Below, in pieces: positions 9,291 to 33,139 of a DNA stretch of 64,000 nt. How positions within the stretch are numbered: the first letter of the stretch is position 1; every line of letters starts with the position of its first letter. The stretch spans positions 448,001-512,000 of the forward strand of contig CH464491.1 of NCBI GenBank assembly GCA_000002445.1, in the 5' to 3' direction. The position numbers and the translations under genes are program-made. The notes beneath the pieces are model-generated. The model was given only the letters and a program-made list of their open reading frames with translations. It did not search any database and was not told the DNA's origin. The stretch is from Trypanosoma brucei. Lineage: Eukaryota.

Positions 9291-9325
9291 GGAAGATAAT
9301 GCATTTGAGTGCCAAAACTACAAAT

Positions 9326-9400: not shown

Positions 9401-9453
9401 TGTATTGTTTCAACAGCACATAAGCAAAAACACATAAATATGTGCAACACCGA

Positions 9454-9517: not shown

Positions 9518-9608
9518 TCGTTAAATGTGAACCCAACGATAACGATATTCTGTGGGACAGATTCAAGTAGATGAGACAACAGAGTAGTGTGCAGGCATTC
9601 GATACGTA

Positions 9609-9714
9609 CAACAGTCAGACCTGTTGAGTTTGATTTAGTATTCAATAAGCGCGCTCATAAAGTAAGGCATATTGACCTTCACGTACACATAATCGTTGTT
9701 TCCATCACACTGCC
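9609..9714 (-). ncRNA. C/D box snoRNA candidate B (guide to conserved LSU rRNA CCUGUUGAG)
   Basis: Minus strand: GGCAG-U-GUGAUGG(C-like box, 9702-9708)...UUGAAUA(C'-like)...CUCAACAGGU-CUGA(D box, 9615-9618)-CUGUU. The 5-bp terminal stem GGCAG/CUGUU has two G.U pairs. Guide positions 2-10 upstream of D pair perfectly with CCUGUUGAG of the conserved LSU motif GACCCUGUUGAGCUUGAC. Looser complementarity continues to ~22 nt. Confidence 0.5.
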
Positions 9715-9956
9715 GCGTCTGTTGTGCATTCCCCCCATTTTCTTATCCACCTTCCCACCCAGATACCACAAACAAACCGCACGATCTCTCTTACACTTTC
9801 GAGCCAATACCGTCACCGAAAGTATACTGACAGACAGCCAGACAGGGTAAGATTTGGTTCTAATGACATAATGCTGCGTAGAGCAAAGGTAGTGGGGGGG
9901 GGAAAAAAAAGGATGTGGAGAGGGATGGAGGAAGGAAGGGAACGAGCTGCATAGCA

Positions 9957-10060
9957 GGCCATTGCTCAGCCGAAAGGTGATTTTTGATGTTCCGTTATCA
10001 ATGCATCGCTCAAACTGTTTGGACCTCGAACAACAATTATGCATCACAGCATCAGTGGCC
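9957..10060 (-). ncRNA. C/D box snoRNA candidate C
   Basis: Minus strand: GGCCA-CUGAUGC-U-GUGAUGC (two overlapping C-like boxes)...UGAUAA(C'-like)...CUGA(D box, 9966-9969)-GCAA-UGGCC. The 5-bp terminal stem is GGCCA/UGGCC. I did not recognise an rRNA target, and a 4-nt spacer separates the D box from the stem. Confidence 0.4.
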
Positions 10061-10179
10061 AAAAAGAAAACTAGTAGCACACATATACACACACACGAAC
10101 ATAAACATAAACATAAACAGGGATGAATGACCTATGAGGAAGAGGGTGGATAAAAACAAAATAATAAGGATGGATGATA

Positions 10180-10274
10180 CTCGATTCAGTGTGAGCTGAG
10201 TTAAAAATTATGTCTTCAAAATGGCTCTACTGCCGTCAGGCTGACAGGAAACTATTGACTGTCATCATTAGAGG
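10180..10274 (-). ncRNA. C/D box snoRNA candidate A, copy 2
   Basis: Repeat copy of 9196..9290 (offset +984). C box complement tcatcat at 10262-10268. The sequence appears identical. Confidence 0.75.
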
Positions 10275-10309
10275 GGAAGATAATGCATTTGAGTGCCAAA
10301 ACTACAAAT

Positions 10310-10384
10310 GGCTCTCGCGCAACAGGACAGGGGCCACATCCCCACGGCATTAAATGGTTGCCACTGGCCCAAGGGATGCTGCGC
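10310..10384 (-). ncRNA. H/ACA-like snoRNA candidate 1, copy 2
   Basis: Repeat copy of 9326..9400 (offset +984). Confidence 0.6.
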
Positions 10385-10437
10385 TGTATTGTTTCAACAG
10401 CACATAAGCAAAAACACATAAATATGTGCAACACCGA

Positions 10438-10501
10438 TTATCTCGGGATGCTGATGCTCCCACTCGCCTACATATGAAGGCAGTGGGTCTCAATGCATAC
10501 C
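10438..10501 (-). ncRNA. H/ACA-like snoRNA candidate 2, copy 3
   Basis: Repeat copy (offset +984). ttatctcg at 10438-10445. Confidence 0.55.
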
Positions 10502-10592
10502 TCGTTAAATGTGAACCCAACGATAACGATATTCTGTGGGACAGATTCAAATAGATGAGACAACAGAGTAGTGTGCAGGCATTCGATACGTA

Positions 10593-10698
10593 CAACAGTC
10601 AGACCTGTTGAGTTTGATTTAGTATTCAATAAGCGCGCTCATAAAGTAAGGCATATTGACCTTCACGTACACATAATCGTTGTTTCCATCACACTGCC
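10593..10698 (-). ncRNA. C/D box snoRNA candidate B, copy 3
   Basis: Repeat copy (offset +984). Confidence 0.5.
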
Positions 10699-10942
10699 GC
10701 GTCTGTTGTGCATTCCCCCCATTTTCTTATCCACCTTCCCACCCAGATACCACAAACAAACCGCATGATCTCTCTTACACTTTCGAGCCAATACCGTCAC
10801 CGAAAGTATACTGACAGGCAGCCAGACAGGGTAAGATTTGGTTCTAATGACATAATGCTGCGTAGAGCAAAGGTAGTGGGGGGGGGGGAAAAAAAAGGAT
10901 GTGGAGAGGGATGGAGGAAGGAAGGGAACGAGCTGCATAGCA

Positions 10943-11046
10943 GGCCATTGCTCAGCCGAAAGGTGATTTTTGATGTTCCGTTATCAATGCATCGCTCAAA
11001 CTGTTTGGACCTCGAACAACAATTATGCATCACAGCATCAGTGGCC
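10943..11046 (-). ncRNA. C/D box snoRNA candidate C, copy 3
   Basis: Repeat copy (offset +986). ggcc starts at 10943. Confidence 0.4.
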
Positions 11047-11166
11047 AAAAAGAAAACTAGTAGCACACATATACACACACACGAACATAAACATAAACAT
11101 AAACACGGGATGAATGACCTATGAGGAAGAGGGTGGATAAAAACAAAATAATAAGGATGGATGATA

Positions 11167-11261
11167 CTCGATTCAGTGTGAGCTGAGTTAAAAATTATGT
11201 CTTCAAAATGGCTCTACTGCCGTCAGGCTGACAGGAAACTATTGACTGTCATCATTAGAGG
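11167..11261 (-). ncRNA. C/D box snoRNA candidate A, copy 3
   Basis: Repeat copy (offset +1971). D box complement tcag at 11173-11176. Confidence 0.75.
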
Positions 11262-11296
11262 GGAAGATAATGCATTTGAGTGCCAAAACTACAAAT

Positions 11297-11371
11297 GGCT
11301 CTCGCGCAACAGGACAGGGGCCACATCCCCACGGCATTAAATGGTTGCCACTGGCCCAAGGGATGCTGCGC
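11297..11371 (-). ncRNA. H/ACA-like snoRNA candidate 1, copy 3
   Basis: Repeat copy (offset +1971). Confidence 0.6.
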
Positions 11372-11424
11372 TGTATTGTTTCAACAGCACATAAGCAAAA
11401 ACACATAAATATGTGCAACACCGA

Positions 11425-11488
11425 TTATCTCGGGATGCTGATGCTCCCACTCGCCTACATATGAAGGCAGTGGGTCTCAATGCATACC
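11425..11488 (-). ncRNA. H/ACA-like snoRNA candidate 2, copy 4
   Basis: Repeat copy (offset +1971). Confidence 0.55.
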
Positions 11489-11579
11489 TCGTTAAATGTG
11501 AACCCAACGATAACGATATTCTGTGGGACAGATTCAAATAGATGAGACAACAGAGTAGTGTGCAGGCATTCAATACGTA

Positions 11580-11685
11580 CAACAGTCAGACCTGTTGAGT
11601 TTGATTTAGTATTCAATAAGCGCGCTCATAAAGTAAGGCATATTGACCTTCACGTACACATAATCGTTGTTTCCATCACACTGCC
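11580..11685 (-). ncRNA. C/D box snoRNA candidate B, copy 4
   Basis: Repeat copy (offset +1971). Confidence 0.5.
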
Positions 11686-11926
11686 GCGTCTGTTGTGCAT
11701 TCCCCCCATTTTCTTATCCACCTTCCCACCCAGATACCACAAACAAACCGCATGATCTCTCTTACACTTTCGAGCCAATACCGTCACCGAAAGTATACTG
11801 ACAGGCAGCTAGACAGGGTAAGATTTGGTTCTAATGACATAATGCTGCGTAGAGCAAAGGTAGTGGGGGGGGAAAAAAAAGGATGTGGAGAGGGATGGAG
11901 GGAGGAAGGGAACGAGCTGCATAGCA

Positions 11927-12030
11927 GGCCATTGCTCAGCCGAAAGGTGATTTTTGATGTTCCGTTATCAATGCATCGCTCAAACTGTTTGGACCTCGAA
12001 CAACAATTATGCATCACAGCATCAGTGGCC
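11927..12030 (-). ncRNA. C/D box snoRNA candidate C, copy 4
   Basis: Repeat copy (offset +1970). ggcc starts at 11927. Confidence 0.4.
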
Positions 12031-12155
12031 AAAAAGAAAACTAGTAGCACACATATACACACACACGAACATAAACATAAACATAAACATAAACAGGGAT
12101 GAATGACCTATGAGGAAGAGGGTGGATAAAAACAAAATAATAAGGATGGATGATA

Positions 12156-12250
12156 CTCGATTCAGTGTGAGCTGAGTTAAAAATTATGTCTTCAAAATGG
12201 CTCTACTGCCGTCAGGCTGACAGGAAACTATTGACTGTCATCATTAGAGG
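12156..12250 (-). ncRNA. C/D box snoRNA candidate A, copy 4
   Basis: Repeat copy (offset +2960). D box complement tcag at 12162-12165. Confidence 0.75.
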
Positions 12251-12285
12251 GGAAGATAATGCATTTGAGTGCCAAAACTACAAAT

Positions 12286-12360
12286 GGCTCTCGCGCAACA
12301 GGACAGGGGCCACATCCCCACGGCATTAAATGGTTGCCACTGGCCCAAGGGATGCTGCGC
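12286..12360 (-). ncRNA. H/ACA-like snoRNA candidate 1, copy 4
   Basis: Repeat copy (offset +2960). Confidence 0.6.
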
Positions 12361-12413
12361 TGTATTGTTTCAACAGCACATAAGCAAAAACACATAAATA
12401 TGTGCAACACCGA

Positions 12414-12477
12414 TTATCTCGGGATGCTGATGCTCCCACTCGCCTACATATGAAGGCAGTGGGTCTCAATGCATACC
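12414..12477 (-). ncRNA. H/ACA-like snoRNA candidate 2, copy 5
   Basis: Repeat copy (offset +2960). Confidence 0.55.
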
Positions 12478-12568
12478 TCGTTAAATGTGAACCCAACGAT
12501 AACGATATTCTGTGGGACAGATTCAAATAGATGAGACAACAGAGTAGTGTGCAGGCATTCAATACGTA

Positions 12569-12674
12569 CAACAGTCAGACCTGTTGAGTTTGATTTAGTA
12601 TTCAATAAGCGCGCTCATAAAGTAAGGCATATTGACCTTCACGTACACATAATCGTTGTTTCCATCACACTGCC
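12569..12674 (-). ncRNA. C/D box snoRNA candidate B, copy 5
   Basis: Repeat copy (offset +2960). A sixth copy at 13558-13605 is truncated by the array boundary and lacks the C box. Confidence 0.5.
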
Positions 12675-12915
12675 GCGTCTGTTGTGCATTCCCCCCATTT
12701 TCTTATCCACCTTCCCACCCAGATACCACAAACAAACCGCACGATCTCTCTTACACTTTCGAGCCAATACCGTCACCGAAAGTATACTGACAGGCAGCTA
12801 GACAGGGTAAGATTTGGTTCTAATGACATAATGCTGCGTAGAGCAAAGGTAGTGGGGGGGGAAAAAAAAGGATGTGGAGAGGGATGGAGGAAGGAAGGGA
12901 ACGAGCTGCATAGCA

Positions 12916-13019
12916 GGCCATTGCTCAGCCGAAAGGTGATTTTTGATGTTCCGTTATCAATGCATCGCTCAAACTGTTTGGACCTCGAACAACAATTATG
13001 CATCACAGCATCAGTGGCC
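12916..13019 (-). ncRNA. C/D box snoRNA candidate C, copy 5
   Basis: Repeat copy (offset +2959). ggcc starts at 12916. Confidence 0.4.
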
Positions 13020-13144
13020 AAAAAGAAAACTAGTAGCACACATATACACACACACGAACATAAACATAAACATAAACATAAACAGGGATGAATGACCTAT
13101 GAGGAAGAGGGTGGATAAAAACAAAATAATAAGGATGGATGATA

Positions 13145-13239
13145 CTCGATTCAGTGTGAGCTGAGTTAAAAATTATGTCTTCAAAATGGCTCTACTGCCG
13201 TCAGGCTGACAGGAAACTATTGACTGTCATCATTAGAGG
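13145..13239 (-). ncRNA. C/D box snoRNA candidate A, copy 5
   Basis: Repeat copy (offset +3949). D box complement tcag at 13151-13154. Confidence 0.75.
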
Positions 13240-13274
13240 GGAAGATAATGCATTTGAGTGCCAAAACTACAAAT

Positions 13275-13349
13275 GGCTCTCGCGCAACAGGACAGGGGCC
13301 ACATCCCCACGGCATTAAATGGTTGCCACTGGCCCAAGGGATGCTGCGC
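13275..13349 (-). ncRNA. H/ACA-like snoRNA candidate 1, copy 5
   Basis: Repeat copy (offset +3949). ggctct starts at 13275. Confidence 0.6.
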
Positions 13350-13402
13350 TGTATTGTTTCAACAGCACATAAGCAAAAACACATAAATATGTGCAACACC
13401 GA

Positions 13403-13466
13403 TTATCTCGGGATGCTGATGCTCCCATTCGCCTACATATGAAGGCAGTGGGTCTCAATGCATACC
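13403..13466 (-). ncRNA. H/ACA-like snoRNA candidate 2, copy 6 (variant)
   Basis: Repeat copy (offset +3949). It carries a substitution (gctcccattcgcc versus gctcccactcgcc) that creates a C/A mismatch in the predicted upper stem. Confidence 0.45.
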
Positions 13467-14826
13467 TCGTTAAATGTGAACCCAACGATAACGATATTCT
13501 GTGGGACAGATTCAAATAGATGAGACAACAGAGTAGTGTGCAGGCATTCAATACGTACAACAGTCAGACCTGTTGAGTTTGATTTAGTATTCAATAAGCG
13601 CGCTCTTTTTTTTTGGGAGAGGGTTACTTCTATTTGCTATATTATTTTTCTTGAACTGCAATGCCTTGCGTGAAGAAAATTATGAGGTGAAAAAAAAAGG
13701 TGTCAAGTTTTTGCTGTTATGGAATTGGTTTTTTTAATGCTTACTTGCTAAACTTTTTTTTTTTGGAGCAGAAGTGTTTACACATTTTCTTTTTTTCAAC
13801 TCATCATCCTGTCTTCCATTTTGTTATGTAACTGATCTTTATACAAATAAGAATGGATATTTGCAATGGAGAACGTATCGGTAGGATGGATGTGAGTTCT
13901 GACCCTTTATTCTGTGATCAGTTGTGGGATTTGCAATATATCTCTCGTGCGTTTTTTTAGAAAAAATATACCAAAGGATGAACAACTTAATGGTAAACGT
14001 TGGATCTTTTCTGCCGAATTTTTTCTTTCTTTTCTTCCATAACTTTTTTTTCTTGGAAGGTGGTTCTTTTCTTAACTTCTACCAAAGCATCGCCGCGTTA
14101 TGCAGTGCAAAGAGGCGAGTTTTTTTTATGTCGATCGAACCACCCTTTAAAAACAAGCAAAACCACGGATACGTAAACGTGTTAATGAGGTTGAGTGATA
14201 GCTTTTGTGACCAATCACCTCACGTGTGGTAACGGTAAGTAAAACAAAACGATGTAAAATGCGGCAAGGCAACAACGCATATGCGCAGTCACTTATATAC
14301 GAACAAATAACGAAATGACATATATATAATGGCAATTCATAAAAAGTGAGAGTAACCATGCCTTTGCAGTTGTGGAATCGTTGTTTTCCCTATTTCATCG
14401 ATTCCCTTGGTGGTTTGCCTTCATATGAAGCTGTGTCGGGCGCTTTCGACATACCCATCAATGCAACAATTCAAACTTGCACTCAGTCACTTTTTCCTTT
14501 TCCCCGTATCGGCGTGAGCTCTACGCTATTTCTCCTCCACTCTGTAGATATTGAGACGCTTGAACGATAACGTATATGAAATGCCCAGCAGTTGCAACCG
14601 CAAGCTTACACATGGATCACTGGACCTTTCCCATGCATAAAGCTAAATGCCATCTCCGAGGCAAGGCAAGAGAGTCGTGAAATACATGATCAAACGAAAA
14701 AATACGAAATGAGGCGACAAACGGCGGACTTCGCTCCGCCCAATAACTCAAATAAATAACACGCACCATATCCTGATTGCTTTACATAACATCCATCTCG
14801 CCACCCCTCGTCAGAACAAACAATTC

Positions 14827-16101
14827 TTAAAGACTGTTGATCAAATCTTTCGTAATGTTCTTGTGATGTGCCTCGAGTGTGCCGCCGCCGATCTCAAGCA
14901 ACTTCGCATCCCGCCACAGCCGCTCCACCGGCATATCACGCGCATATCCCATACCACCCATAACTTGCATGGCGTTGTCAGCCGCCCGCTTCGCAACAGG
15001 CGCTGCAAACAATTTTACCGCATCGCTCCCCAGGCGGTTGCAATTTCCTGGCGCCACACTCCTGCTTACAGCATATGTAAGTGATTTGGCCGCCTCCGTT
15101 TCTGCAAACGTCTCGGCAATGTAGCGCTGAATCTGTCCATAATTCCAAATGTGTTTACCAAACGTCTTACGCTCATTGGCATAACACGTCATGAGTTCCA
15201 CGCAACGATCAGCAATACCCACCGCCATTGCGGCCAATGTGAGACGCTCAACCTCCAGGTTACGCATCATTGCCACAAGCCCTTTCCCTTCAGTGCCGAG
15301 CAGATTCTCCTCTCCAAGCACCACATTATCGAAGAAAAGTTGACACATGTGAGACCCACGCATGCCGCACTTGTCAATCTTCTTCCCCACAGAAAACCCC
15401 GATGCACCCTTCTCTACAACGAACGCGGTGATTTTGCCGTCAACCTTTGCATACACAAGAACAAGGTCAGCAACGGTACCATTTGTCACCCACGTCTTGC
15501 CACCGTTAAGAATATACTTTCCATTACTTTCTTTTGTCGCAGTGGTCAGCATACCAAGAACATCTGTACCCGCACCGGGTTCCGACATGCCCATTGCACC
15601 TATGTGCTCGCCTGTAAGCACTTTGGGGAGCCACCGCTCCCGTTGTGCCGCTGTGGAAGCATGATAGAAGTTGTTCACAAAAAGCATCGAGTGAGCCAAG
15701 TAGGCGAGACAAAAGCCTGGATCCACTTTGGAAAGCTCGTGGTGGATAACAACCGCTGCCGTGGCGTCCATTCCAGCACCACCGTCTCCCTCAGGAATGG
15801 TTACACCGAGTACACCAAGGTCACCCAACTCGCGTAGGAGATCAACATTAAAATGCATGTCAATATCGCTCTGTTTTGCCTGCGTTTCAACCCGCTCCGC
15901 TGCGAATCTTTGAACCGTTTCACGCAGCATCTTGTGTTCAGGTGTTGGGTTTAAAAGATAATCCAAGTTAACGGTCGTCGAAGGAGAGAAAAAACGGAGA
16001 CCACATGGTGCTACCAGCGCAGTGTAGTGTCGTCTAATAGACGCTAAACGATACGAGCGCATGCTCAACAGGGGGAAATGAAACAAAACGCTCAAATTCA
16101 A
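14827..16101 (-). CDS. IVD: Isovaleryl-CoA dehydrogenase (acyl-CoA dehydrogenase family), mitochondrial
   Basis: 424-aa ORF with ACAD signatures GMSEPGAGTD and GGKTWVTNG. It has the IVD-type arrangement: Glu in NLEVERLTLA (compare DLERLVLA) and EIGGGTLEAH (compare YEIGAGTSEV). An Arg-rich presequence suggests the real start may be Met14 (16062). Confidence 0.85.
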   Translation of the reverse strand: MNLSVLFHFPLLSMRSYRLASIRRHYTALVAPCGLRFFSPSTTVNLDYLLNPTPEHKMLRETVQRFAAERVETQAKQSDIDMHFNVDLLRELGDLGVLGVTIPEGDGGAGMDATAAVVIHHELSKVDPGFCLAYLAHSMLFVNNFYHASTAAQRERWLPKVLTGEHIGAMGMSEPGAGTDVLGMLTTATKESNGKYILNGGKTWVTNGTVADLVLVYAKVDGKITAFVVEKGASGFSVGKKIDKCGMRGSHMCQLFFDNVVLGEENLLGTEGKGLVAMMRNLEVERLTLAAMAVGIADRCVELMTCYANERKTFGKHIWNYGQIQRYIAETFAETEAAKSLTYAVSRSVAPGNCNRLGSDAVKLFAAPVAKRAADNAMQVMGGMGYARDMPVERLWRDAKLLEIGGGTLEAHHKNITKDLINSL

Positions 16102-16838: not shown

Positions 16839-18413
16839 TCATTTTACACCTCCATCGCAGACTCGCACATCTGCAACTGCTTGCTTCTCGGGATGAAAGC
16901 TCATGAAAGTAATCTTCCCATCCTCACTCTCCAAGAACCTCATGTGTCGCACCTGCAGCAGGTCCTGCTCCGCAGCAGTCAATTCATCCACCTTCACCTG
17001 AGACATTAAGCGACGCGTTTCATCCAACAGGAACTCTGAAGAGAAAGAGTTCGTCAACTTTTCACCCTGGTTAACGCTCTCCTCTTTTATTACCATGTGA
17101 ATTGGAGAAGAAAAGCGACCACGGAGCCCCAATACAGCAATGCATTGTTCCAACGGTGAAAAGCACGGTAGAGGGGATTCCGACACGGGTCGGATCTTTC
17201 CTAACAATCCCTTAACGTGCGATGCTCCCTTCAGCATCCCCGCTGTCGGTTTCTTCGTATGTGCTCGAAATTTGTAATCGTAGCACTGACCGGCCACGAT
17301 GGATCTGAGAGCCCACACTGCACCTTTCAACAGCTCCACACCTTCCTCTATCGCCTCCCTCGAGAGTGGGGACTCCTTCATTGTCATTTGTTTAATTTTA
17401 GACATGTACTTGGCCGGTGAACTGACGTCTTTCACTGCCATTACGGCGCGCAGAAACTCAATATCCACATCGAAACCCTCTCCACGTATGAGTGATCTCT
17501 TAAAATAACCACAGTGGAGACGAAGTTCTCTGTAACGACGCCAGAAAACAAGAGCCACCTTTCCAATTCCCTCAAACCAGTCGCCTCCACTAAGCAGCAT
17601 TAGGAAGACGAAATCAATACGATACGACGGTAACAAATCGGGTCGTATTTGATTCCCCGGTGAAGACGACCCCCAGTGTTTGAAAAGTTCACCAACATCG
17701 GTCAGAGCGTAGTCTCGGGGATCCACTATGGTGAATTTGGTATATGGAGTGCAGGCAACACCAACTAGCACCAAGTCGGAATCATTTCCGACGACTATAA
17801 TTTCATCATCTCCCGTATATGTTTGTGACTTCCGTTGCTCCAGCCAGATGGTACGCAAGACACAAACCACTTTTAGCTCGCCTTCACCACCTTCAGCGCA
17901 GCCACTCATAATAATTGTGTAATTCCTTCCCTCTCCCGGTGGCACACAAAATTCACCACCAATCCCAAATGCACATCTCACCGCATCTTCGCACGCAAGT
18001 AAAAATTCAGACCCCGCGATAATTTCTTCGCGTGAAAATGAGATTTCCTGCCCAATGTAGTCGTGATTGTATCTTAACTCGAGCGAACTTGTACACTCGC
18101 TACTGTGTCGCTTGTTATACGATGCACGCCGGGTCTTCTGTGTCTGAAGTTTGGCGCAAGGCGCAACCCCGTCAAAGAGAATCACAAGGGTTTCACTGGG
18201 GGGAAATGCGGAAATGAGCTTCTGCACAGCCTCAACTACTCCTTCAATCACTGACTTGGTGGTGAAAACATTGGTTGGCACGATATAATGAACAATGGCA
18301 TTCATATCTAAAAGCAGGTGGTTGGTCCTCTTGACGACACCGTCCCTGCCCCTGCTCGAACTTCTGACGAGACCATGTTTCTCGACATAATTTCGTAGCC
18401 CCTTGGTGCCCAT
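16839..18413 (-). CDS. Compact, divergent XRN-family 5'-3' exoribonuclease-like protein
   Basis: 524-aa ORF. Its motifs match XRN N-terminal motifs: LLLDMNAIVHY (LYLDMNGIIH), LFDGVAPCAKLQTQKTRR (DGVAPRAKMNQQRSRR), EGGEGELKV (PGEGEHKI) and GNDSDLVLVG (GLDADLIML). All catalytic acidic positions appear to be retained. Confidence 0.65.
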   Translation of the reverse strand: MGTKGLRNYVEKHGLVRSSSRGRDGVVKRTNHLLLDMNAIVHYIVPTNVFTTKSVIEGVVEAVQKLISAFPPSETLVILFDGVAPCAKLQTQKTRRASYNKRHSSECTSSLELRYNHDYIGQEISFSREEIIAGSEFLLACEDAVRCAFGIGGEFCVPPGEGRNYTIIMSGCAEGGEGELKVVCVLRTIWLEQRKSQTYTGDDEIIVVGNDSDLVLVGVACTPYTKFTIVDPRDYALTDVGELFKHWGSSSPGNQIRPDLLPSYRIDFVFLMLLSGGDWFEGIGKVALVFWRRYRELRLHCGYFKRSLIRGEGFDVDIEFLRAVMAVKDVSSPAKYMSKIKQMTMKESPLSREAIEEGVELLKGAVWALRSIVAGQCYDYKFRAHTKKPTAGMLKGASHVKGLLGKIRPVSESPLPCFSPLEQCIAVLGLRGRFSSPIHMVIKEESVNQGEKLTNSFSSEFLLDETRRLMSQVKVDELTAAEQDLLQVRHMRFLESEDGKITFMSFHPEKQAVADVRVCDGGVK

Positions 18414-19678
18414 AACAATTTTCTCTGTGGCACCTTCCCTTCAAAAATAAACAAATAAATAAACGCAGTTTAGGGTAGCGTAGAGTAGTGTAAACGGGAA
18501 GAAAAAGTAAACTCAGCACTGGAGCAACGGCCCTTGCATGCGAAAACAAGTGCACTGAGGGAAAGAAAAGGTGCTATTTCTTTAGGAACCGGAATGTAAA
18601 TTACAGCATCTGAGTAAAAATTCGGGCAATCAGTAAAACCGCAGAACATCGAAAAGAGGCGGTTATTTCACGGAGGAAATGGCACACAGATTATGATAAG
18701 GCAATGTTTTCCGTGGTTCCGCCACAAGCGCGCACCACCTAGTGGGAGACACGGTGAAGTTGAATGTCAACACGACAATTTATAAAATTCTCATTCCGAA
18801 AAGTTCTATAAACGGTCATCACATTCACACGTTGCTCCTCTGACAATATGAAAACTGATTGAGCCGCATTAAACATCATTTCATGTACATCTCTCACCTT
18901 AATCACTTATTTACTGGATTCTCGGTAGTAAAGTCGCTCCATGTTTTGCGAAGATGCCTCCACACACACACGCACACACGCCTACAGTAGCACCAAATTG
19001 CATGAAACATTTCTGAATGTAATGAGTCATTAAGACATAAAAACATATGAACATATAAATATATATATATTTATATGTTTTTATGGGTGTACGGATGAAG
19101 TAACACCACGACATTTGTGCTCGCACCACCGCAAGCAGATTCAACCTTAATGATTTTCACCAGCTCTGGATTTACAATCATCAGCACCTGCTTTACTGTA
19201 TTAATGCACCGTTAGGCGAGCTAAACGTATGCACACACATTTCTCCCCTTCTTTATGGTATTTTTTTTCTTTTCGGTTTTGACTCAACAGAAATGAATAC
19301 CTTGTATACCTTTACTCTTCAACATTACCGAAAGTGATGAAAGTGTTGAATTATTATTATTATTATTTTGACGGTTGTGCGCGTATGTCCGTACGGCATC
19401 TGTCCACTTTCCCCCATCTAAAAAAAAAAAACAGCTCAACCTTGCCCACTTTGTTTTTTATTTCCTCCACAACCACTCCATCCTTCCCCACTCGAGCAAA
19501 CCACATCCCTTCCAGACATACTTTTTCTTTTTCTTTTCATGCCTTTGTCCATGTGGTGATGATAATTGTTATTAGCGTAAAATAACAAGACGTAAAACAT
19601 GAAAAAATAAATAAATAAAAATAAAGATAAAAATGAAGATAAAAAAGGAAGCGTGGAAAGGCATCACCTGAATTACAA

Positions 19679-20716
19679 CTACAATTTCTCCACCCACTTC
19701 TCATAACCCTCCCAGGGAGTGGACTCTCTGCAAATATCTTTTAATCCGCCCTCGCCCTGCTGGAACACCATAAAATGAGGAATTCCAGTCACCTTAATGA
19801 ACGGATGCGTGCGGTAGAGATATTTTGGGTTACCCAAATATACGGAGCGTTCAACATTGCATTGCACATAAACGACGCGGCGCTTCTCCTTCGCTGCCTT
19901 CACTGCGCGCTGCACCATTGGCTCTGCAAGAACACACGGAGGACACCACGACTTGTGGGTTTTGGGATGCGACACACCTTTTATAAGCACCACAAGGATA
20001 TCACCGGGTTGCAGTGCGGCTTTGACCTTCTCAAGTGTAGCATCGAAGTCCCTTGGATTTTTTACCAGAATGTTATCTGTATCATTCGCTGGGCCCATCG
20101 CTGTTTCGACTGGCGGATTGTTAATAAAAAACATGTGCTCCTCATGCGCTTCCACCGCTTCCTTGACAAGTGCTTCGGAAAGTCCAGCGGTGTCACGAGG
20201 AATGGGGCGAAAGGTTTCTGCGCGTCTGAAAAGACGGAGGCAAGTGGCGGGTCCCGAGTTGGAAGAAACAACTCGATGATACATTCCGGGGGGGAGAACA
20301 ATCACGTCACCCATTTTCCCCTCAATGCGTACCCACTCATCCTTCTCATTGCGCACATCCACATAAATAATACCACTTTCCACAATTCGCATTTGTTCAT
20401 CCACGTTAAGGTGTTCCATACTCTCATCCTTCGACGGTGTGGTAAACGTAACCTTCTCCAGTGTTTTGTAACCGAGGTTCCAAATGAGTCGCTGGGCGTA
20501 CGTACGGCCTTCATCGTCATCGGGGTGGCGTTCGTGAAGTGTTGCGACATCTATGCTGCGACTATAAACAAGAAATGTTTCCAATTGCACATCCGTCACG
20601 GGGACGTCTGGTGAGCAGTGACATGGTGCAGTAATATCACCCTCTTGTGTGTTCAATAACCAACTGCTCGGCATTGTTTGATTCTTCCGTTTTGTTTTCT
20701 TTTTTCTTTTTTGCAC
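19679..20716 (-). CDS. Fusion protein: acireductone dioxygenase (ARD cupin) N-terminal domain + TRP14/TXNDC17-like thioredoxin-fold C-terminal domain
   Basis: 345-aa ORF. The N-terminal half is colinear with ADI1 (GIIYVDVRNEKDEWVRIEGKMGDVIVLPPGMYHRV versus [33 protein letters not shown]). The C-terminal half matches TXNDC17 (HKSWCPPCVLAEPMV versus GKSWCPDCVQAEPVV, and VVYVQCNV...GIPHFMVF). The likely true start is Met15 (20674), because the first 14 codons are a Lys-rich translation of an A-rich tract. Confidence 0.8.
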   Translation of the reverse strand: MQKRKKKTKRKNQTMPSSWLLNTQEGDITAPCHCSPDVPVTDVQLETFLVYSRSIDVATLHERHPDDDEGRTYAQRLIWNLGYKTLEKVTFTTPSKDESMEHLNVDEQMRIVESGIIYVDVRNEKDEWVRIEGKMGDVIVLPPGMYHRVVSSNSGPATCLRLFRRAETFRPIPRDTAGLSEALVKEAVEAHEEHMFFINNPPVETAMGPANDTDNILVKNPRDFDATLEKVKAALQPGDILVVLIKGVSHPKTHKSWCPPCVLAEPMVQRAVKAAKEKRRVVYVQCNVERSVYLGNPKYLYRTHPFIKVTGIPHFMVFQQGEGGLKDICRESTPWEGYEKWVEKL

Positions 20717-20822
20717 CTTTAATTAACTTACCTGCACGGGTTTCGCAAAAGTTGACGATGTCTGTAACCTCGATGGGCCCCTAATTAAAGTCCACGATAT
20801 CGGGAACGGGAAGGAAGAGGAG

Positions 20823-20824
<2 letters not shown>

Positions 20825-20878
<54 letters not shown>
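20825..20878. repeat. (CA)27 microsatellite
   Basis: 54 nt of uninterrupted CA dinucleotide in the intergenic spacer. Confidence 0.98.
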
Positions 20879-20879
<1 letters not shown>

Positions 20880-21808
20880 CCAAGGAAAGAAAAAAAAGGA
20901 AAGGAAAGGATAAAAAGATTTTTAAAATATATTTCAAGAATGGTTAAAAAACGTATTGAACAGTGATTGGGAAGAGCTCACAAAACAAAATGATGTTATT
21001 AACTCTCACAAAGTTTTCCCCACTTTTGGAGTCCACATGAATGAGCTGAAGTATACCGCGCAGATTTGTGGTTTCACACATCTCCATATTTTGGGGGAGG
21101 GGGGATCGAAACCGAACCACAGTTAAATGTCGTGTCGCATCATTTCAACAGGACCCGAATGTTTGCCGTCACTTGAAATGTATTTTGACATGCCTCTCAT
21201 CCGGGTGATGTTAAGGGAAAAAGGGAAAGGCAGTAAAACAAAAAACAAAAAAACAAAAAGAAAAAAAATAATAACAACAACAAACAAAAAATAAATACCA
21301 ACTACGCGTGAGAAGGCGAAACTTAAAATGTTATGATGATCTGGACATAAGCCGTCCAACCAGCCCCCGTACAGTTATGGGTTGATTTAATATGTGAAGA
21401 TGCCAATTTTTTTTTGTAATTGCGGCCACATTTAAGTGTTATACCCAATTTATTACCATTCTTAACACCAAATAAACGTCGACTAAACAACATATATAAC
21501 AGTCAAAAATAATTTAGAAAAGAAAAATATAAAACAACTTTTATATACGTTACGGAAGTGGACAGGGGGATCGAAATAAGCTTGCGGTGTGCGTGGAGAG
21601 GGAGGGGAAAGGAACAATAATAACAGTGAAACAAGAAAAAAAAAAGGAAAAAGGTCCGGAGCGAAAAAAAAAAACAAATAGAATTAAAGTGGCCCAGCTA
21701 TGCAGAAGTTATGGAACGGTACGAAAAATATTAAACAGGAGTAATGCACAAAGAGGGGGAGAAGGGAAGATGGCACGACATAAAGTACTGACGCGACTTG
21801 CGCCGACG

Positions 21809-28875: not shown

Positions 28876-30102
28876 TCAGATGTGAAACACCTCAACACAT
28901 GTTTGGTAGAACTGTTCTTGGGCTTCCTCCTCTGTAATATTTGCAAGAAAGGCATCCCCCCTCTCTTCCCCCATTGTTCTCACCGTACCAACGTAAGCTT
29001 CGAGTACCTGCCGCAAGTGGCAAGGCTCGGTGCGGCGCTCACTGCAGAGCGTCGGATCAAACGGCTTTCCCCTCCGATTGGTGGGAAACTGAGTTCGAAG
29101 GAAGCGGGCACCATAGTGCTGTTGCCTAATGTCGCACCATGGTGCATCGGTTTCCAGCATCAGCCGATCGCGCGGAATGCTACAAACCTGCTCAGAACGT
29201 TCCTTTTCCCTAAACGCACTGCCGTTTATGCTGAAATAAACACCTGGAATGGCGAGAAGCCGCTCCTGCTCCTCAGGACTCCCATTGTAGCTATGCACAA
29301 CACCTACGAATGGGGTTTCAGATGTCCACGAACGCACCTCCTCTTCAATTAGTTCAACGAAATCCATACCACAATCACGCGAGTGAAGTATGAATGGGAG
29401 ACCCAAAGTCCTGAGAACCCGAAACTGTTGAATAAAGTATTCCCTCTGTACCTCCTTTGGGCAGTAGGAAAGCTCTGCGTAATCCAAACCAATCTCCCCT
29501 ACAGCAACCACAACATCACGATTCTCATTCACCAATTCCACAAGTTTCTCCATACGCTCGTCAGAATGGTGTAGTGAGTCATCGGAATGTTCCCCTGCAG
29601 AGTAATAAGGTACTTGGATCGAAACATCATCTTCTGCTGCAGCTTCAATAGCCTTCCAATCCATCGGCCGTGTCATCTCCGCGCAATGCGCAGGGTGCAC
29701 CCCAACCGTGCAACGAAGGACAGATGGATAGCGACGGCAGAGACGTATCGCCTTTACACACTGCGGAAGGCTCGTACCAGTGATGATGATCTTCCCTACG
29801 TTGTGTTCCACTGCGCGACGCATCACCTCGTCAAAGTTATCATCATGAACACGTCGACCCTTCCAATCAACGCCACGGAAGACGCAATCGGTGAGGTTTA
29901 CCGCAATGTCGACTAAACAAGGAACGGAAGATCCCCTCATGTCGTCTCTAAACGTTGGGTTTATCGTATAATTAGGGGAAAAAATAAGGGAAGGGTCAGA
30001 AGGTGTACAACTACCTACGTCTAAAGACATACGAGAGCTTCCGAATAGACTCAAACTCCCACCGCGGATGAAGTCACGTTTGCACGTAACGTTGTGGTGC
30101 AC
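28876..30102 (-). CDS. TatD-family metal-dependent deoxyribonuclease/hydrolase
   Basis: 408-aa ORF with TatD motifs in order: VDIAVNLTD, VGVHPAHC, AVGEIGLDY, LPFILHSRD, GVVHSYNGS, YFSINGSAF and LMLETDAPWC. The N-terminal ~55 aa may be an over-extension (internal Met25 and Met55). Confidence 0.88.
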   Translation of the reverse strand: MHHNVTCKRDFIRGGSLSLFGSSRMSLDVGSCTPSDPSLIFSPNYTINPTFRDDMRGSSVPCLVDIAVNLTDCVFRGVDWKGRRVHDDNFDEVMRRAVEHNVGKIIITGTSLPQCVKAIRLCRRYPSVLRCTVGVHPAHCAEMTRPMDWKAIEAAAEDDVSIQVPYYSAGEHSDDSLHHSDERMEKLVELVNENRDVVVAVGEIGLDYAELSYCPKEVQREYFIQQFRVLRTLGLPFILHSRDCGMDFVELIEEEVRSWTSETPFVGVVHSYNGSPEEQERLLAIPGVYFSINGSAFREKERSEQVCSIPRDRLMLETDAPWCDIRQQHYGARFLRTQFPTNRRGKPFDPTLCSERRTEPCHLRQVLEAYVGTVRTMGEERGDAFLANITEEEAQEQFYQTCVEVFHI

Positions 30103-30511: not shown

Positions 30512-33139
30512 TTACGTGTCTAAAACGCTGGCGAGGGTAACAACTTCAACAGAATCCCTCCTAGGAACCAATGGGGCAGGTGGGGACTTTGACTTCACAG
30601 CTGTCGCAGCGTCCGCTAGCCGCTTTTCTTGCTCAGCCTTTCGTTTCTCTTTCTCCATCTTTTGTCGTTTCTGTTCAGCCTTCTTGCGCTTTTTCGTGGG
30701 ACTCGAGCTGAATAACCCTCCTTTCTTACCAATGTCAGCTAAGGAACGGTCGAGCATACCAAAGAAGGAAGGCATTTGCTTCCAACCCGTTGTTGGTTTG
30801 TCGTCAGCGTCGCGTCTCTGGTGAGCAATGCGTTCATCCCACAAAGCTAACATGGAATTGCATGTATCCTCACCAATCTCTTTCTTGCGCGATAGTAACA
30901 AGAAACGCACAACAAATGTTGGGCAATCACCAAAGTCGTCAAGAAGGTCCTTCTGCACGATAAAATCAAAATCTACCGGTTTTCTCACGGCAAGAAGGTT
31001 CTTGACTAGTTCAAGCGCCTTATTCACCTTACTGATAAGCTTACCACGACTATCCGAAATGCGTGCCTTCCACATATCAATTGTTATGACAATGTCACGT
31101 ACAAAACAGTTCACAAACTCATTCCAGTCCTTTGCGGCTTTACTAGACGGATGCCGAACGGCATCTCCGAGAAACTCCATAAGCTCGGTCAAGAATTTCT
31201 GAATGTACCTTTGCATCATGCGATGCGTTACCGTGTGTAGCTGTGAAGCCTCGAAGGAACAGCTGAACTCCTCGTCGATAAAGTCCGCCATAGTGTCGAG
31301 GATTATTCGCGTTGGACTATCCTCTCCCTCATACCAACCTTTTGAGCGGAATACGTCCGGCCACTGCCCCTCGACCATTCGCTCCACATGCAATATAACC
31401 TCATCAATGTAGTGGGAAGCATGATCTACCAGAACATCCTGAGTCTGAATAAACGGTGAGTTGTCTTCAAGGCCCTCTTCCTCGTTCCAATAAGACACAA
31501 ACACGAGCTCAACCGTGTCCATGTTGCGCTCAATCACTGAACAGTCATTGCAAAAGGCATACAAAAACGCAAGTCGTCGCATCTTCCACTCCTCATTGCC
31601 GCTATTTCCACCAGATTTTTGCCTTTGCTCCATCTCCTCCCAACGGTCGTAATCAATTAACAACTTACATTCCGAAAAGTAGCTCTCAATTGCAGCTGCA
31701 CAGGCCCTGCCTATCTGTCGCATGACGTCGACTTCGATCGCCGTTGAGAGACCGGCAAGAGTTTGCTGCAGTACGGCAAACATGTCTTTTGGCCCGGTTG
31801 TAACAGGCAGACCACTAGAGCTCCGAAACGGTTTATTTCCATCCTCCAGGACAGTTCTAGCACATACCTTACATAGTTGCACAAGATGCATCATGAGCCC
31901 GTCCACAGCACCCGCCGTCATGCAGGCCGACAGTTTGTCCAGTGCAGCGATATCAACATGAGATGAGTAGTTTCCATCCTTCAACATCTCCTTGTACCAT
32001 CGCACGAAGTCGGAGGCGGCGATGAGGTCGTTTGCTTTCGCCTCCAACCCCGGGTCCGCATAAATTTCGAGCGATTTCACCACCTCCCCATGCAAGGAAA
32101 CCACTACAATAGGAAATAGAGATAACCTGCTCGAAAGAGGAATCAATGTCATTTCAAGAGCCGAAAGAATCGGCGCTATCTTCTTCATACGATCCAAATA
32201 GGCAACGCCCTGCGCAACAGGATTGGTGAACTCCGCCATCACGTCGTCCACCCACAACTTTTTTGCGCAAGCGGCGACAGCTTCGAATATTTTGGCCTCG
32301 GTGATGAGCGGCTCCCCATCTGCAGAGTACAAGAAACCTTTATCCTCAGTTATCTCAACGGCGCACAACTGCACGCATTCCTCTAATTGCGTAAACTCGG
32401 GTATGGACTGCACCACCGCCCCCATTCGCGGTGGATCCTTAAGCGCCTTTTGGATCGCAGCGGGCACTGAAGTTTCTCTAAAAAGTTTGTAGACACCTTC
32501 AACAAACATCGTCTGCACTAACTCCAGCTTTTCAAAGTAGGGGTCAAACGAGTTTTGGTGTGCTTTGGGGTAGCTGTGCAATTCCTCTGTTACAGTCTGA
32601 CGTATGAGCTGCAGCCGGCACAGCCGTTTGTACACGGCGGCGAACTGTCGCTGCTCCACAAGCCTGTACATGTCTGTGTAACGCAATTCGTTGAGTACTT
32701 CAACCCATTCGATGACAGAAGTAACATTGCTTCGAAGATAATGCAGCTCACGTAGCTGTTTGTAGCTTCCCGAAGTCACATTCATCTGAGCAATGATACT
32801 ACCCTGCTTGATAAAAAGCTCGCGGAGGTCCTGAATTCGCTCCCCACTTTCTTTCACAATCTGCACGGCTCTATGTCCCTCCAACATCTGTGAGGAGGCC
32901 ATTGATTTAATTGCACGCCGGAGTTCCTGTGCTTCTGTCGTACAGGCACGTAGGAGTCGAGGTATAACTGCTTCCAAATCTTCCGCATGCGCCAACTCGT
33001 GGTTTATGGCTGTGTTGACCTCCTCCGCCAGGACCACGCGGTCAGTTTCGGAAAGATAAGGCCAAAGCTCCTCTGCAGTGTAAAATTGTGAAGAATCAAG
33101 CTCACCCAACGCAACATTAGACTGATGTGGGACCGGCAT
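30512..33139 (-). CDS. Large helical protein, possibly exocyst Sec6/EXOC3-like tethering subunit, with Lys-rich C-terminal tail
   Basis: 875-aa ORF. It has loose colinearity with EXOC3 as I remember it (N-terminal coiled-coil region, and C-terminal DCPTFVVRFLLLSRKKEIGEDTCNSML versus DIRDDHIGALLAVRGDASRDMKQTIM). The tail is PTKKRKKAEQKRQKMEKEKRKAEQEKR. The product call is weak. Confidence 0.6.
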   Translation of the reverse strand: MPVPHQSNVALGELDSSQFYTAEELWPYLSETDRVVLAEEVNTAINHELAHAEDLEAVIPRLLRACTTEAQELRRAIKSMASSQMLEGHRAVQIVKESGERIQDLRELFIKQGSIIAQMNVTSGSYKQLRELHYLRSNVTSVIEWVEVLNELRYTDMYRLVEQRQFAAVYKRLCRLQLIRQTVTEELHSYPKAHQNSFDPYFEKLELVQTMFVEGVYKLFRETSVPAAIQKALKDPPRMGAVVQSIPEFTQLEECVQLCAVEITEDKGFLYSADGEPLITEAKIFEAVAACAKKLWVDDVMAEFTNPVAQGVAYLDRMKKIAPILSALEMTLIPLSSRLSLFPIVVVSLHGEVVKSLEIYADPGLEAKANDLIAASDFVRWYKEMLKDGNYSSHVDIAALDKLSACMTAGAVDGLMMHLVQLCKVCARTVLEDGNKPFRSSSGLPVTTGPKDMFAVLQQTLAGLSTAIEVDVMRQIGRACAAAIESYFSECKLLIDYDRWEEMEQRQKSGGNSGNEEWKMRRLAFLYAFCNDCSVIERNMDTVELVFVSYWNEEEGLEDNSPFIQTQDVLVDHASHYIDEVILHVERMVEGQWPDVFRSKGWYEGEDSPTRIILDTMADFIDEEFSCSFEASQLHTVTHRMMQRYIQKFLTELMEFLGDAVRHPSSKAAKDWNEFVNCFVRDIVITIDMWKARISDSRGKLISKVNKALELVKNLLAVRKPVDFDFIVQKDLLDDFGDCPTFVVRFLLLSRKKEIGEDTCNSMLALWDERIAHQRRDADDKPTTGWKQMPSFFGMLDRSLADIGKKGGLFSSSPTKKRKKAEQKRQKMEKEKRKAEQEKRLADAATAVKSKSPPAPLVPRRDSVEVVTLASVLDT

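What the first reader, a model, noticed from the sequence alone, without database searches (positions are those of the whole stretch)
19679..20716. ARD cupin fused to a TRP14-like thioredoxin fold with a WCPPC motif, and with two ARD metal ligands replaced
The N-terminal half aligns along its length with acireductone dioxygenase. However, the canonical metal-binding EHLHxDDE reads EHLNVDEQ here: the second His is Asn and the Glu position is shifted or replaced by Gln. The distal His (GMYHRV) is kept. The C-terminal half is clearly TXNDC17/TRP14-like but carries WCPPC, the motif typical of tryparedoxins, instead of WCPDC. A methionine-salvage cupin fused to a redox domain suggests either redox-coupled chemistry or a repurposed, non-dioxygenase cupin.
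Basis: partly seen in the sequence, partly recalled or inferred. Interest (0 to 1): 0.55.

Follow-up and report, generated by a model that had tools for sequence, protein, structure and literature searches.

The report
Metal-site-degenerate ARD–thioredoxin fusion paralogue in Trypanosoma
This trypanosome gene encodes a methionine-salvage dioxygenase look-alike that has lost two of its four metal-binding residues but keeps an intact thioredoxin-type redox domain, so it is probably not the dioxygenase that databases call it.

Summary
One minus-strand ORF encodes a 331-aa protein. Its real start is the ATG at 20674, not the GTG at 20716. Residues 1-160 are an ARD cupin and residues 206-331 are a TXNDC17/TRP14-like thioredoxin domain.

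Against human and mouse ADI1 the metal quartet H88/H90/E94/H133 reads H88/N90/Q94/H133. The redox motif is WCPPC.

The fusion itself is not special. It is the usual form of ARD across Kinetoplastea (Bodo, Apiculatamorpha, Leishmaniinae, Angomonas, Phytomonas). There the ligands are canonical (HHEH) and the motif is mostly WCPDC.

The distinctive feature is a Trypanosoma-wide paralogue, "type A", seen in eight named species plus this window. All copies have HNQH and WCPPC, and the copy shares gene order with the T. grayi type-A locus. T. grayi and T. theileri also keep a canonical "type B" copy at a second locus that is shared with Leishmania and Phytomonas.

In type A about 16 of 39 conserved ARD-domain (cupin plus C-terminal tail) positions have changed, but only 3 of 18 linker/thioredoxin-region positions.

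Best reading, which is inferred: type A has lost ARD chemistry and works through its thioredoxin domain, with the cupin kept as a binding module. This is a new variant of a known kind, of moderate interest. It is not Tb927.4.360.

The parts
19679..20674 (-). Complete CDS, 331 aa plus stop codon (stop at 19679-19681; ATG at 20672-20674)
   Evidence: All eight named Trypanosoma orthologues (seven full-length at 328-334 aa; the T. theileri model, 313 aa, is partial) start at this Met.
20675..20716 (-). Not coding: A-rich 5' leader that the bacterial ORF caller read as an N-terminal extension from a GTG
   Evidence: No orthologue has this extension.
20195..20674 (-). ARD-like cupin domain (aa 1-160)
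   Evidence: Pfam PF03079, E=2e-16. ADI1 alignment. Foldseek hits to 1VR3 and 4QGN.
20384..20419 (-). Degenerate cupin motif 1, MEHLNVDEQMRI (aa 86-97): H88 kept, H90 changed to N (20405-20407), E94 changed to Q (20393-20395)
20276..20278 (-). Codon of H133, the retained distal His ligand (GMYHRV)
20060..20194 (-). Inter-domain linker (aa 161-205), including the long helix at residues 167-185 and the conserved PP.ET..GPAND.DN segment
   Evidence: Model secondary structure. Alignment A1.
19682..20059 (-). TXNDC17/TRP14-like thioredoxin domain (aa 206-331)
   Evidence: Pfam PF06110, E=4e-13. PDB TXNDC17 chains at E=3e-9.
19934..19948 (-). WCPPC redox motif (aa 243-247)
19778..19780 (-). Codon of P299, which aligns with the cis-Pro of TRP14 (VPT there, IPH here)
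   Evidence: This column is Pro in 100% of family members.
20802..20900 (-). Upstream polypyrimidine tracts flanking a (TG)26 run on the coding strand. Plausible trans-splicing signal, inferred only.
   Evidence: read directly from the sequence. No transcript data.

Best explanation
The gene encodes the 'type A' paralogue of the kinetoplastid ARD-TRP14 fusion protein.

Shown: kinetoplastids ancestrally carry acireductone dioxygenase fused to a TXNDC17-like thioredoxin domain, with the normal 3-His/1-Glu metal site.

Shown: the genus Trypanosoma has a second copy at a different locus, the one in this window. In it, two metal ligands are replaced by their uncharged look-alikes (His to Asn, Glu to Gln, one base change each), and about a dozen further family-conserved cupin residues have changed. 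After that burst of change the domain became conserved again. The thioredoxin domain keeps almost every conserved residue and has CPPC in place of CPDC.

Inferred: type A no longer binds Fe/Ni as an ARD does and does not carry out the acireductone dioxygenase step.

Inferred: it acts as a thiol-disulfide (TRP14-class) oxidoreductase. Trypanosomatids lack thioredoxin reductase (from my own knowledge), so it would be recharged by the trypanothione/tryparedoxin system. The tryparedoxin/nucleoredoxin-type CPPC motif would suit that.

Inferred: the remodelled but conserved cupin pocket serves as a ligand- or partner-binding module.

The pattern looks like complementary degeneration after duplication of a bifunctional gene. 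Type A keeps the redox half. Type B keeps the dioxygenase half, and in T. theileri type B has lost the thioredoxin half altogether.
For: Architecture and ligand states.

Genus-wide conservation: eight named species plus the window share 56-76% identity, and N90, Q94 and WCPPC are invariant.

Canonical fusions with HHEH occur in Bodo saltans, Apiculatamorpha (Prokinetoplastina), Leishmania, Leptomonas, Porcisia, Lotmaria, Angomonas and Phytomonas.

Two loci. The window order Sec6-TatD-p247-p1137-p472-ARD-XRN-ACAD matches the T. grayi type-A locus L010. The canonical copy sits in a protein kinase-ARD-...-glutaredoxin(107 aa) block in L. panamensis, Phytomonas, T. grayi and T. theileri, with PIN_4 genes just downstream in the two Trypanosoma loci.

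Asymmetric change. About 16 of 39 conserved ARD-domain (cupin plus C-terminal tail) columns changed, against 3 of 18 linker/thioredoxin-region columns. ARD-domain identity to bodonid-like relatives is 30% for type A and 43% for type B. Thioredoxin-domain identity is 42% for A and 36% for B. Within type A the figures are 65% and 70%.

T. theileri type B ends at a real stop codon with no thioredoxin remnant downstream.

TXNDC17 has CPDC and nucleoredoxin has CPPC (PMC6928294). TRP14 is a cystine and persulfide reductase (PMC11217419 and PMC4737208, abstracts listed).
Against: No biochemical data exist for any type-A protein.

Asn and Gln side chains can coordinate metals. The replacements are near-isosteric and strictly conserved, so the site clearly still matters and could hold a metal. 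R96, H88, H133, D92 and much of the barrel are kept.

I could not read the coordinates of the model, so the geometry of the site and the position of CPPC relative to the cupin mouth are unknown.

I could not test whether T. brucei or T. cruzi keep a canonical type-B gene. If they do not, type A might be under pressure to keep some salvage role.

The timing of the duplication is unresolved, because the sister group of clade A is unstable in NJ bootstraps.

The CPPC-trypanothione link is an analogy and was not tested. Angomonas type B also has CPPC.
Confidence: 0.55

Rival explanations
1. It is still a metalloenzyme. A 2-His plus Asn/Gln site binds a different or more weakly held metal (for example Mn, Zn or Mg) and catalyses ARD-like or other oxygenase/isomerase chemistry, perhaps coupled to the fused thioredoxin domain.
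For: N90 and Q94 are invariant in all type-A proteins and are isosteric mimics of the lost ligands. H88, H133, D92, R96 and the barrel are kept, and the domain is 65% conserved within the clade. From my own knowledge, Gln is a zinc ligand in the cupin phosphomannose isomerase.
Against: Both replacements remove strong ligands, including the only anionic one. Another roughly 14 family-conserved ARD-domain positions also changed (G103, F105, A129, F135, F149, W155, Y171 and others). A canonical copy coexists in T. grayi and T. theileri, so type A is not needed for the salvage step there.
Confidence: 0.22
2. It is a wholly non-catalytic adaptor or regulator. Both domains serve only as protein-interaction surfaces, as described for moonlighting ADI1 and as the title of a T. 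cruzi study suggests ('enolase ... inhibited by its interaction with ... a putative acireductone dioxygenase').
For: Reference found (Quintero-Troconis et al. 2018, PMID 29530564). The T. cruzi orthologue P0004 carries the same database name. The cupin active site is degenerate.
Against: The paper could not be read, so it is unknown which T. cruzi ARD-like gene was studied. Both Cys of the CxxC, the Trp before it and the cis-Pro are invariant, and 15 of 18 conserved linker/thioredoxin-region positions are kept. That pattern is typical of an active redoxin.
Confidence: 0.18
3. It is an artefact or a decaying gene: two neighbouring genes joined by an assembly or frameshift error, or a pseudogene drifting after loss of methionine salvage.
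For: KEGG-based reports describe the salvage pathway as incomplete in T. brucei (PMC3846528).
Against: The same uninterrupted 328-334-aa ORF is found in seven named species (the T. theileri model is a 313-aa partial), in three independent Logan assemblies at 99% identity, and in the T. grayi genome. The fusion is also present in Bodo and Leishmaniinae. Clade-specific residues are fixed, not drifting.
Confidence: 0.02

Closest known systems
Mammalian acireductone dioxygenase ADI1/MTCBP-1 (PDB 1VR3, 5I8S, 4QGN)
   Same: Same cupin fold (Foldseek E about 1e-14 to 1e-15, target-normalised TM 0.77-0.78). Residues 3-160 align, and residues 85-160 align without gaps and with identical numbering. H88, D92, R96, H133 and R134 are kept.
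   Different: H90 is N and E94 is Q. About 14 further conserved positions are changed. Identity is only 24-26%. It carries an extra C-terminal thioredoxin domain.
Canonical kinetoplastid ARD-TXD17 fusion proteins (Bodo saltans CUG89762.1; Angomonas deanei U5KL61; L. panamensis, L. martiniquensis and Leptomonas 'acireductone dioxygenase'; T. grayi XP_009310662.1)
   Same: Identical two-domain architecture and linker motif, and a similar length of 332-357 aa.
   Different: These have HHEH ligands and mostly WCPDC. They are 30-34% identical to the window protein. Where gene context was examined (L. panamensis, Phytomonas, T. grayi, T. theileri), they sit at a different, conserved locus (kinase ... 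glutaredoxin).
TRP14 / TXNDC17 (PDB 1WOU, 7XQ3, 22FG)
   Same: Pfam PF06110 member. The W-C-x-x-C, the cis-Pro and the TRP14-specific segment after beta3 all align.
   Different: The motif is CPPC instead of CPDC. The domain is fused to a cupin. Its mammalian reductant TrxR1 is absent from trypanosomatids (from my own knowledge).
Tryparedoxin / nucleoredoxin
   Same: They share the WCPPC active-site motif (nucleoredoxin CPPC: PMC6928294; tryparedoxin WCPPC from my own knowledge).
   Different: They belong to a different thioredoxin-fold subfamily. No tryparedoxin-type Pfam family appears among the hits at E<=1; only PF06110, plus a weak, sub-threshold PF00085 hit.
Tetrahymena MtnBD (MtnB-ARD fusion)
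   Same: Another protist ARD that is fused to a partner domain (PMC3698126).
   Different: The partner there is a salvage-pathway dehydratase and the ARD half is catalytically active. Here the partner is a redoxin and the ARD half is ligand-degenerate.

Membership tests
ARD/ARD' (Pfam PF03079; acireductone dioxygenase, EC 1.13.11.53/54) | Sequence and fold membership: a match to the ARD profile above the curated cut-off, and a cupin barrel like ADI1 | tested here: met
   60.9 bits against a cut-off of 27. ADI1 chains at E=2e-16. Foldseek to 1VR3 and 4QGN at E about 1e-14 to 1e-15.
ARD/ARD' (Pfam PF03079; acireductone dioxygenase, EC 1.13.11.53/54) | 3-His/1-Glu metal-binding quartet (H88, H90, E94, H133 in ADI1) | tested here: not met
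   The quartet is H-N-Q-H here and in all Trypanosoma type-A proteins. It is HHEH in 339 of about 360 ARD domains.
ARD/ARD' (Pfam PF03079; acireductone dioxygenase, EC 1.13.11.53/54) | Fe- or Ni-dependent oxidative cleavage of acireductone | not testable with these tools
   Requires a biochemical assay.
TXNDC17/TRP14-like thioredoxins (Pfam PF06110) | A match to the TXD17-like profile above the curated cut-off | tested here: met
   49.4 bits against a cut-off of 23.1. PDB TXNDC17 chains at E=3e-9 to 1e-6.
TXNDC17/TRP14-like thioredoxins (Pfam PF06110) | W-C-P-D-C dithiol active site and a cis-Pro loop | tested here: met
   Both Cys, the Trp and the cis-Pro are present and invariant. The Asp is replaced by Pro (WCPPC) in all type-A proteins.
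TXNDC17/TRP14-like thioredoxins (Pfam PF06110) | Disulfide, cystine or persulfide reductase activity with a dedicated reductant | not testable with these tools
   Requires an assay. The reductant in trypanosomes is unknown.
Tryparedoxin | Tryparedoxin-type thioredoxin-fold domain with WCPPC | tested here: not met
   Only the pentapeptide is shared. The domain scores as PF06110, not as a tryparedoxin-type family.
Kinetoplastid ARD-TXD17 fusion family (defined in this study) | A single ORF with an N-terminal ARD domain, a helical linker with the ..T.LG...DN.. motif, and a C-terminal TXD17-like domain | tested here: met
   Alignments A1 and fam.aln. About 25 representative clusters in the 1.84-billion-protein library reach E<=1e-30, most of them full-length fusions (the rest tandem-ARD or ARD-only proteins).

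The most novel reading that the evidence does not exclude
The dead-looking cupin may be a metabolite sensor. It would still bind an acireductone-, KMTB- or MTA-derived ligand, or a metal, and gate the attached TRP14-class reductase. That would couple sulfur and methionine salvage status to trypanothione-dependent cystine, persulfide or protein-disulfide reduction.

More broadly, the ancient ARD-TRP14 fusion is a 'Rosetta stone'. It points to an undescribed functional link between TRP14 and the methionine salvage pathway. That link was resolved into two specialised genes in Trypanosoma.
Probability: 0.12. Interest if true: 0.7.

Novelty: new variant of a known kind. Interest (0 to 1): 0.4.

Why it matters
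[quoted passage not shown] If the cupin is not a dioxygenase, metabolic reconstructions that use it to close the methionine salvage cycle in trypanosomes are wrong for this gene. That pathway has been considered as a drug-target area (PMC5738077; PMC3846528).

It is also a clean natural example of a fused bifunctional gene that duplicated and then degenerated in a complementary way, domain by domain.

Finally, it flags a TRP14-class redoxin with a tryparedoxin-like CPPC motif in organisms that lack thioredoxin reductase. The ancestral fusion hints at a TRP14-methionine salvage connection. I found no paper mentioning both.

Tried and rejected
1. Link to Tb927.4.360. [quoted passage not shown] I first suspected it was this gene and then rejected that. 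Tb927.4.360 has an 843-nt CDS and 52 nt from the stop to the next ATG (PMC3973304, supplementary file 9). This gene has 996 nt and 14 nt. The window also carries the TB11Cs4 snoRNA cluster, a chromosome-11 name. Those localisation data must not be transferred to this gene.

2. Exact-sequence look-up of the window protein found nothing on record. The T. brucei gene ID could not be obtained. Searches for neighbouring Tb927.4 IDs and for DUF953 found nothing.

3. Quintero-Troconis 2018 (T. cruzi 'putative ARD' and enolase) is not held. Which paralogue it concerns is unknown.

4. The AFDB Foldseek library was unavailable. Model coordinates are not exposed, so the site geometry was not examined.

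5. NJ phylogenies on the whole protein, the ARD half alone and the thioredoxin half alone. Clade A is monophyletic at 100% bootstrap, but its sister group is unstable. The environmental protein P0029 was sister in 38-66% of bootstraps. The age of the duplication is therefore unresolved. The first tree attempt with Biopython timed out.

6. Contigs of P0027 and P0032, possible further divergent paralogues, were too short to give gene context. P0090 (HHQH) could not be traced to an organism.

7. A second ARD copy in the window: none found by tblastn. Neighbouring genes show no functional link. This is as expected for trypanosome polycistrons.

Full report
**1. What is in the sequence**

The window is trypanosomal. 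All long ORFs lie on the minus strand, as in one polycistronic unit. It carries a tandem array of the trypanosomatid snoRNAs TB11Cs4H1, H2 and H3. The nearest named orthologue of the target protein is from T. congolense at 76% identity, and unnamed Logan assemblies reach 99%. I infer a T. brucei-group genome, chromosome 11. The chromosome assignment rests on the snoRNA nomenclature, which I know from memory.

The flagged ORF 19679..20716 (-) is real. Its GTG start is an artefact of the bacterial ORF rule. Every orthologue begins at the Met encoded at 20672-20674. The CDS is therefore 19679-20674, encoding 331 aa. Upstream on the coding strand lie polypyrimidine tracts and a (TG)26 run, which is compatible with a trans-splice acceptor region. 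That is inference only.

**2. Check of the observation**

- Pfam gives ARD (PF03079, residues 9-153, 60.9 bits against a cut-off of 27) and TXD17-like_Trx (PF06110, residues 209-306, 49.4 bits against a cut-off of 23.1).
- phmmer against all PDB sequences aligns residues 3-160 with mouse and human ADI1 at E=2e-16. From residue 85 onward the numbering is identical.
- EEHLHLDEEIRY (mouse; EEHLHLDDEIRY in human) aligns with SMEHLNVDEQMRI. So H88 is kept, H90 is Asn, E94 is Gln, and H133 (GIYHRF against GMYHRV) is kept.
- Read directly from the DNA, the codons are CAC (H88), AAC (N90), CAA (Q94) and CAT (H133). Each replacement is a single base away from the canonical residue.
- The C-terminal half aligns with TRP14/TXNDC17 chains at E=3e-9 to 1e-6. 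WCPPC lies over WCPDC and IPH over the cis-Pro VPT.
- An AlphaFold2 model (mean pLDDT 77.5, pTM 0.73) has the expected cupin barrel, a long linker helix (residues 167-185) and a thioredoxin fold. Foldseek ranks 1VR3 and 4QGN first.

**3. The fusion is ordinary for kinetoplastids**

A profile search of 1.84 billion representative proteins and two word-indexed searches recovered about 25 clusters of full-length ARD-TXD17 fusion proteins. Named members are:
- Bodo saltans
- Apiculatamorpha spiralis, a prokinetoplastid
- Angomonas deanei
- Phytomonas
- Leptomonas
- Lotmaria
- Porcisia
- several Leishmania species

A related monothiol form occurs in a Difflugia (Amoebozoa) transcriptome. Diplonema has an ARD with no fused domain.

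In all of these the ligand quartet is HHEH and the redox motif is mostly WCPDC. Databases already record the two Pfam domains and name these proteins 'acireductone dioxygenase'. So the fusion on its own is neither new nor a sign of unusual chemistry. No paper in the held library mentions acireductone together with TXNDC17, TRP14 or DUF953, so the fusion appears not to have been discussed.

**4. What is special**

The window protein and its orthologues in T. congolense, T. vivax, T. cruzi, T. melophagium, T. grayi, T. conorhini, T. rangeli and T. theileri all read EHLN[VIL]DEQM and WCPPC. I call this clade 'type A'. It is monophyletic with 100% bootstrap support.

HNQH occurs only in this clade. 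Other deviations are isolated singletons or pairs.

**5. Type A is a paralogue, not simply the Trypanosoma version of ARD**

T. grayi also encodes a 357-aa fusion with HHEH and WCADC (P0020). T. theileri encodes a 188-aa HHEH protein (P0035). These two are sisters (98% bootstrap) and group with the Leishmaniinae, Angomonas and Phytomonas proteins (76%). I call this group 'type B'.

Gene order separates the two types:
- Type B lies in a block of large protein kinase, ARD, two or three unannotated genes and a 107-aa glutaredoxin, with PIN_4 genes downstream in the two Trypanosoma loci. This holds in L. panamensis, Phytomonas, T. grayi and T. theileri.
- Type A in T. grayi lies in the order Sec6-TatD-...-1083 aa-449 aa-ARD-398 aa-XRN_N-acyl-CoA dehydrogenase. 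tblastn shows the same order in the window: Sec6 30512-33139, TatD 28876-30102, 1137 aa, 472 aa, the target gene, XRN-like 16839-18413, and ACAD 14827-16101.

T. theileri type B ends at a genuine stop codon with no thioredoxin remnant downstream.

I could not determine whether T. brucei, T. cruzi and the other species keep a type-B gene. The searches that could have shown it are not exhaustive, and no eukaryote genome collection was searchable.

**6. Pattern of change**

I took the columns that are at least 85% conserved among 45 canonical sequences.
- Type A has changed about 16 of 39 in the ARD domain (cupin core plus its C-terminal tail). The changes include H90N, E94Q, G103, F105, A129, F135, F149, W155, R168 and Y171.
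- Type A has changed only 3 of 18 in the linker and thioredoxin region: D246P, F269Y and T300.

Measured against bodonid-like relatives:
- the type-A ARD domain is 30% identical, against 43% for type B
- the type-A thioredoxin domain is 42% identical, against 36% for type B

Within type A, both domains are well conserved, at 65% and 70%. Twenty-seven clade-specific residues are fixed, many of them on the metal-site strand (E84, N90, Q94, M95, E99, S100).

This is the signature of a burst of change followed by renewed constraint. It points to a change of function in the cupin, not to decay, while the redox domain stayed under continuous constraint.

**7. Most likely mechanism**

The following steps are shown:
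- the architecture
- loss of two of four ligands
- paralogy
- asymmetric conservation of the two domains

The following steps are inferred:
- Loss of an imidazole and of the only carboxylate ligand, together with remodelling of the pocket, makes Fe/Ni-dependent acireductone cleavage unlikely.
- The intact W-C-x-x-C and cis-Pro apparatus suggests an active redoxin of the TRP14 class. In mammals TRP14 reduces cystine, persulfides and selected disulfides (PMC11217419, PMC4737208).
- Trypanosomatids lack thioredoxin reductase (from my own knowledge). The electron source would therefore be trypanothione, with or without tryparedoxin. The Asp-to-Pro change creates the CPPC motif of tryparedoxin and nucleoredoxin.
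- The cupin is retained as a ligand- or partner-binding module.

The complementary states of the two copies fit duplication followed by domain-wise subfunctionalisation. Type A has a degenerate cupin and a conserved thioredoxin domain. Type B has an intact cupin and a thioredoxin domain that is relaxed or lost. I put this reading at about 0.55.

**8. Rival explanations**

(a) An altered metalloenzyme, about 0.2. Asn and Gln are isosteric, invariant and able to coordinate metals, so the site clearly still matters.

(b) A purely non-catalytic adaptor, about 0.2. The title of a T. cruzi paper reports that a 'putative acireductone dioxygenase' binds and inhibits enolase. The paper was unreadable and the paralogue it studied is unknown.

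(c) An artefact or pseudogene, about 0.02. This is excluded by the intact ORF across species and assemblies.

**9. A trap avoided**

T. brucei Tb927.4.360 carries the same product name. It is reported to be axonemal and to associate with outer-dynein-arm IC1. It is a different gene, for three reasons:
- its CDS is 843 nt, against 996 nt here
- its stop-to-next-ATG distance is 52 nt, against 14 nt here
- it lies on chromosome 4, whereas this window carries a chromosome-11 snoRNA cluster

Trypanosomes therefore have up to three ARD-like genes, and data attached to the shared name must be assigned with care.

**10. Verdict**

It is a new variant of a known kind: a genus-wide, ligand-degenerate paralogue within an already annotated but undiscussed ARD-TRP14 fusion family. 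Interest is moderate (0.4). It corrects a likely misannotation in a pathway of chemotherapeutic interest. It offers a tidy case of domain-wise subfunctionalisation. It also points to an unexplored link between TRP14 and methionine salvage. The function remains untested.

Noticed in passing
window 8466-13468 (-): A tandem array with a period of about 990 bp and five to six copies. It holds the H/ACA snoRNA cluster TB11Cs4H1/H2/H3 (Rfam RF01539-RF01541, 67-90 bits). It fills the 6.5-kb stretch that has no long ORF. The family names point to T. brucei chromosome 11.
   Followed up: partly
literature: Tb927.4.360 (T. brucei chromosome 4, not in this window): This is a different ARD-like gene with the same product name. 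It has an 843-nt CDS and is annotated as the orthologue of LmjF34.4600. Its translation is up-regulated in procyclic forms, and it is reported to be axonemal and to co-purify with ODA IC1 in a PIH1D1-dependent way. Its ligand quartet is unknown. P0090 (287 aa, coiled-coil N-terminus, HHQH) might be of this type.
   Followed up: partly
L009 10001-10567 (T. theileri NBCO01000014.1): The canonical type-B ARD of T. theileri is a stand-alone 188-aa protein. A real stop codon follows it and no thioredoxin-domain remnant lies downstream. So the ancestral fusion has been undone in this lineage.
   Followed up: yes
L010 11541-12737 (T. grayi) compared with window 18414-19678: T. grayi has an extra 398-aa gene between the type-A ARD gene and the XRN-like gene. 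The window has no room for it and no counterpart.
   Followed up: no
window 16839-18413 (-): A short (524 aa) XRN_N-domain 5'-3' exonuclease homologue lies immediately downstream. It is 52% identical to the T. grayi neighbour.
   Followed up: no
window 20826-20878: A (CA)26 microsatellite, (TG)26 on the coding strand, sits between two polypyrimidine tracts just upstream of the gene.
   Followed up: no
window 19775-20614 (+): A 279-aa antisense ORF lies entirely inside the gene. It is a shadow ORF and no evidence suggests it is coding.
   Followed up: no
hit lists: ARD is a promiscuous fusion partner in protists and fungi. The lists include tandem ARD-ARD proteins (chytrids, poplar), ARD-RidA (PF01042), ARD-GST/EF1B-gamma (chytrids), MtnB-ARD (PF00596, Symbiodinium), and monothiol WCPDA/WCPDV variants of the thioredoxin fusion (Difflugia and environmental sequences).
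   Followed up: no
P0140/P0281, P0034/P0280, P0027, P0142: Other fusion or ARD proteins also have degenerate quartets: HCIH, HGEH, HHTH and HNHH. Loss of ligands has therefore happened independently several times in this family.
   Followed up: no
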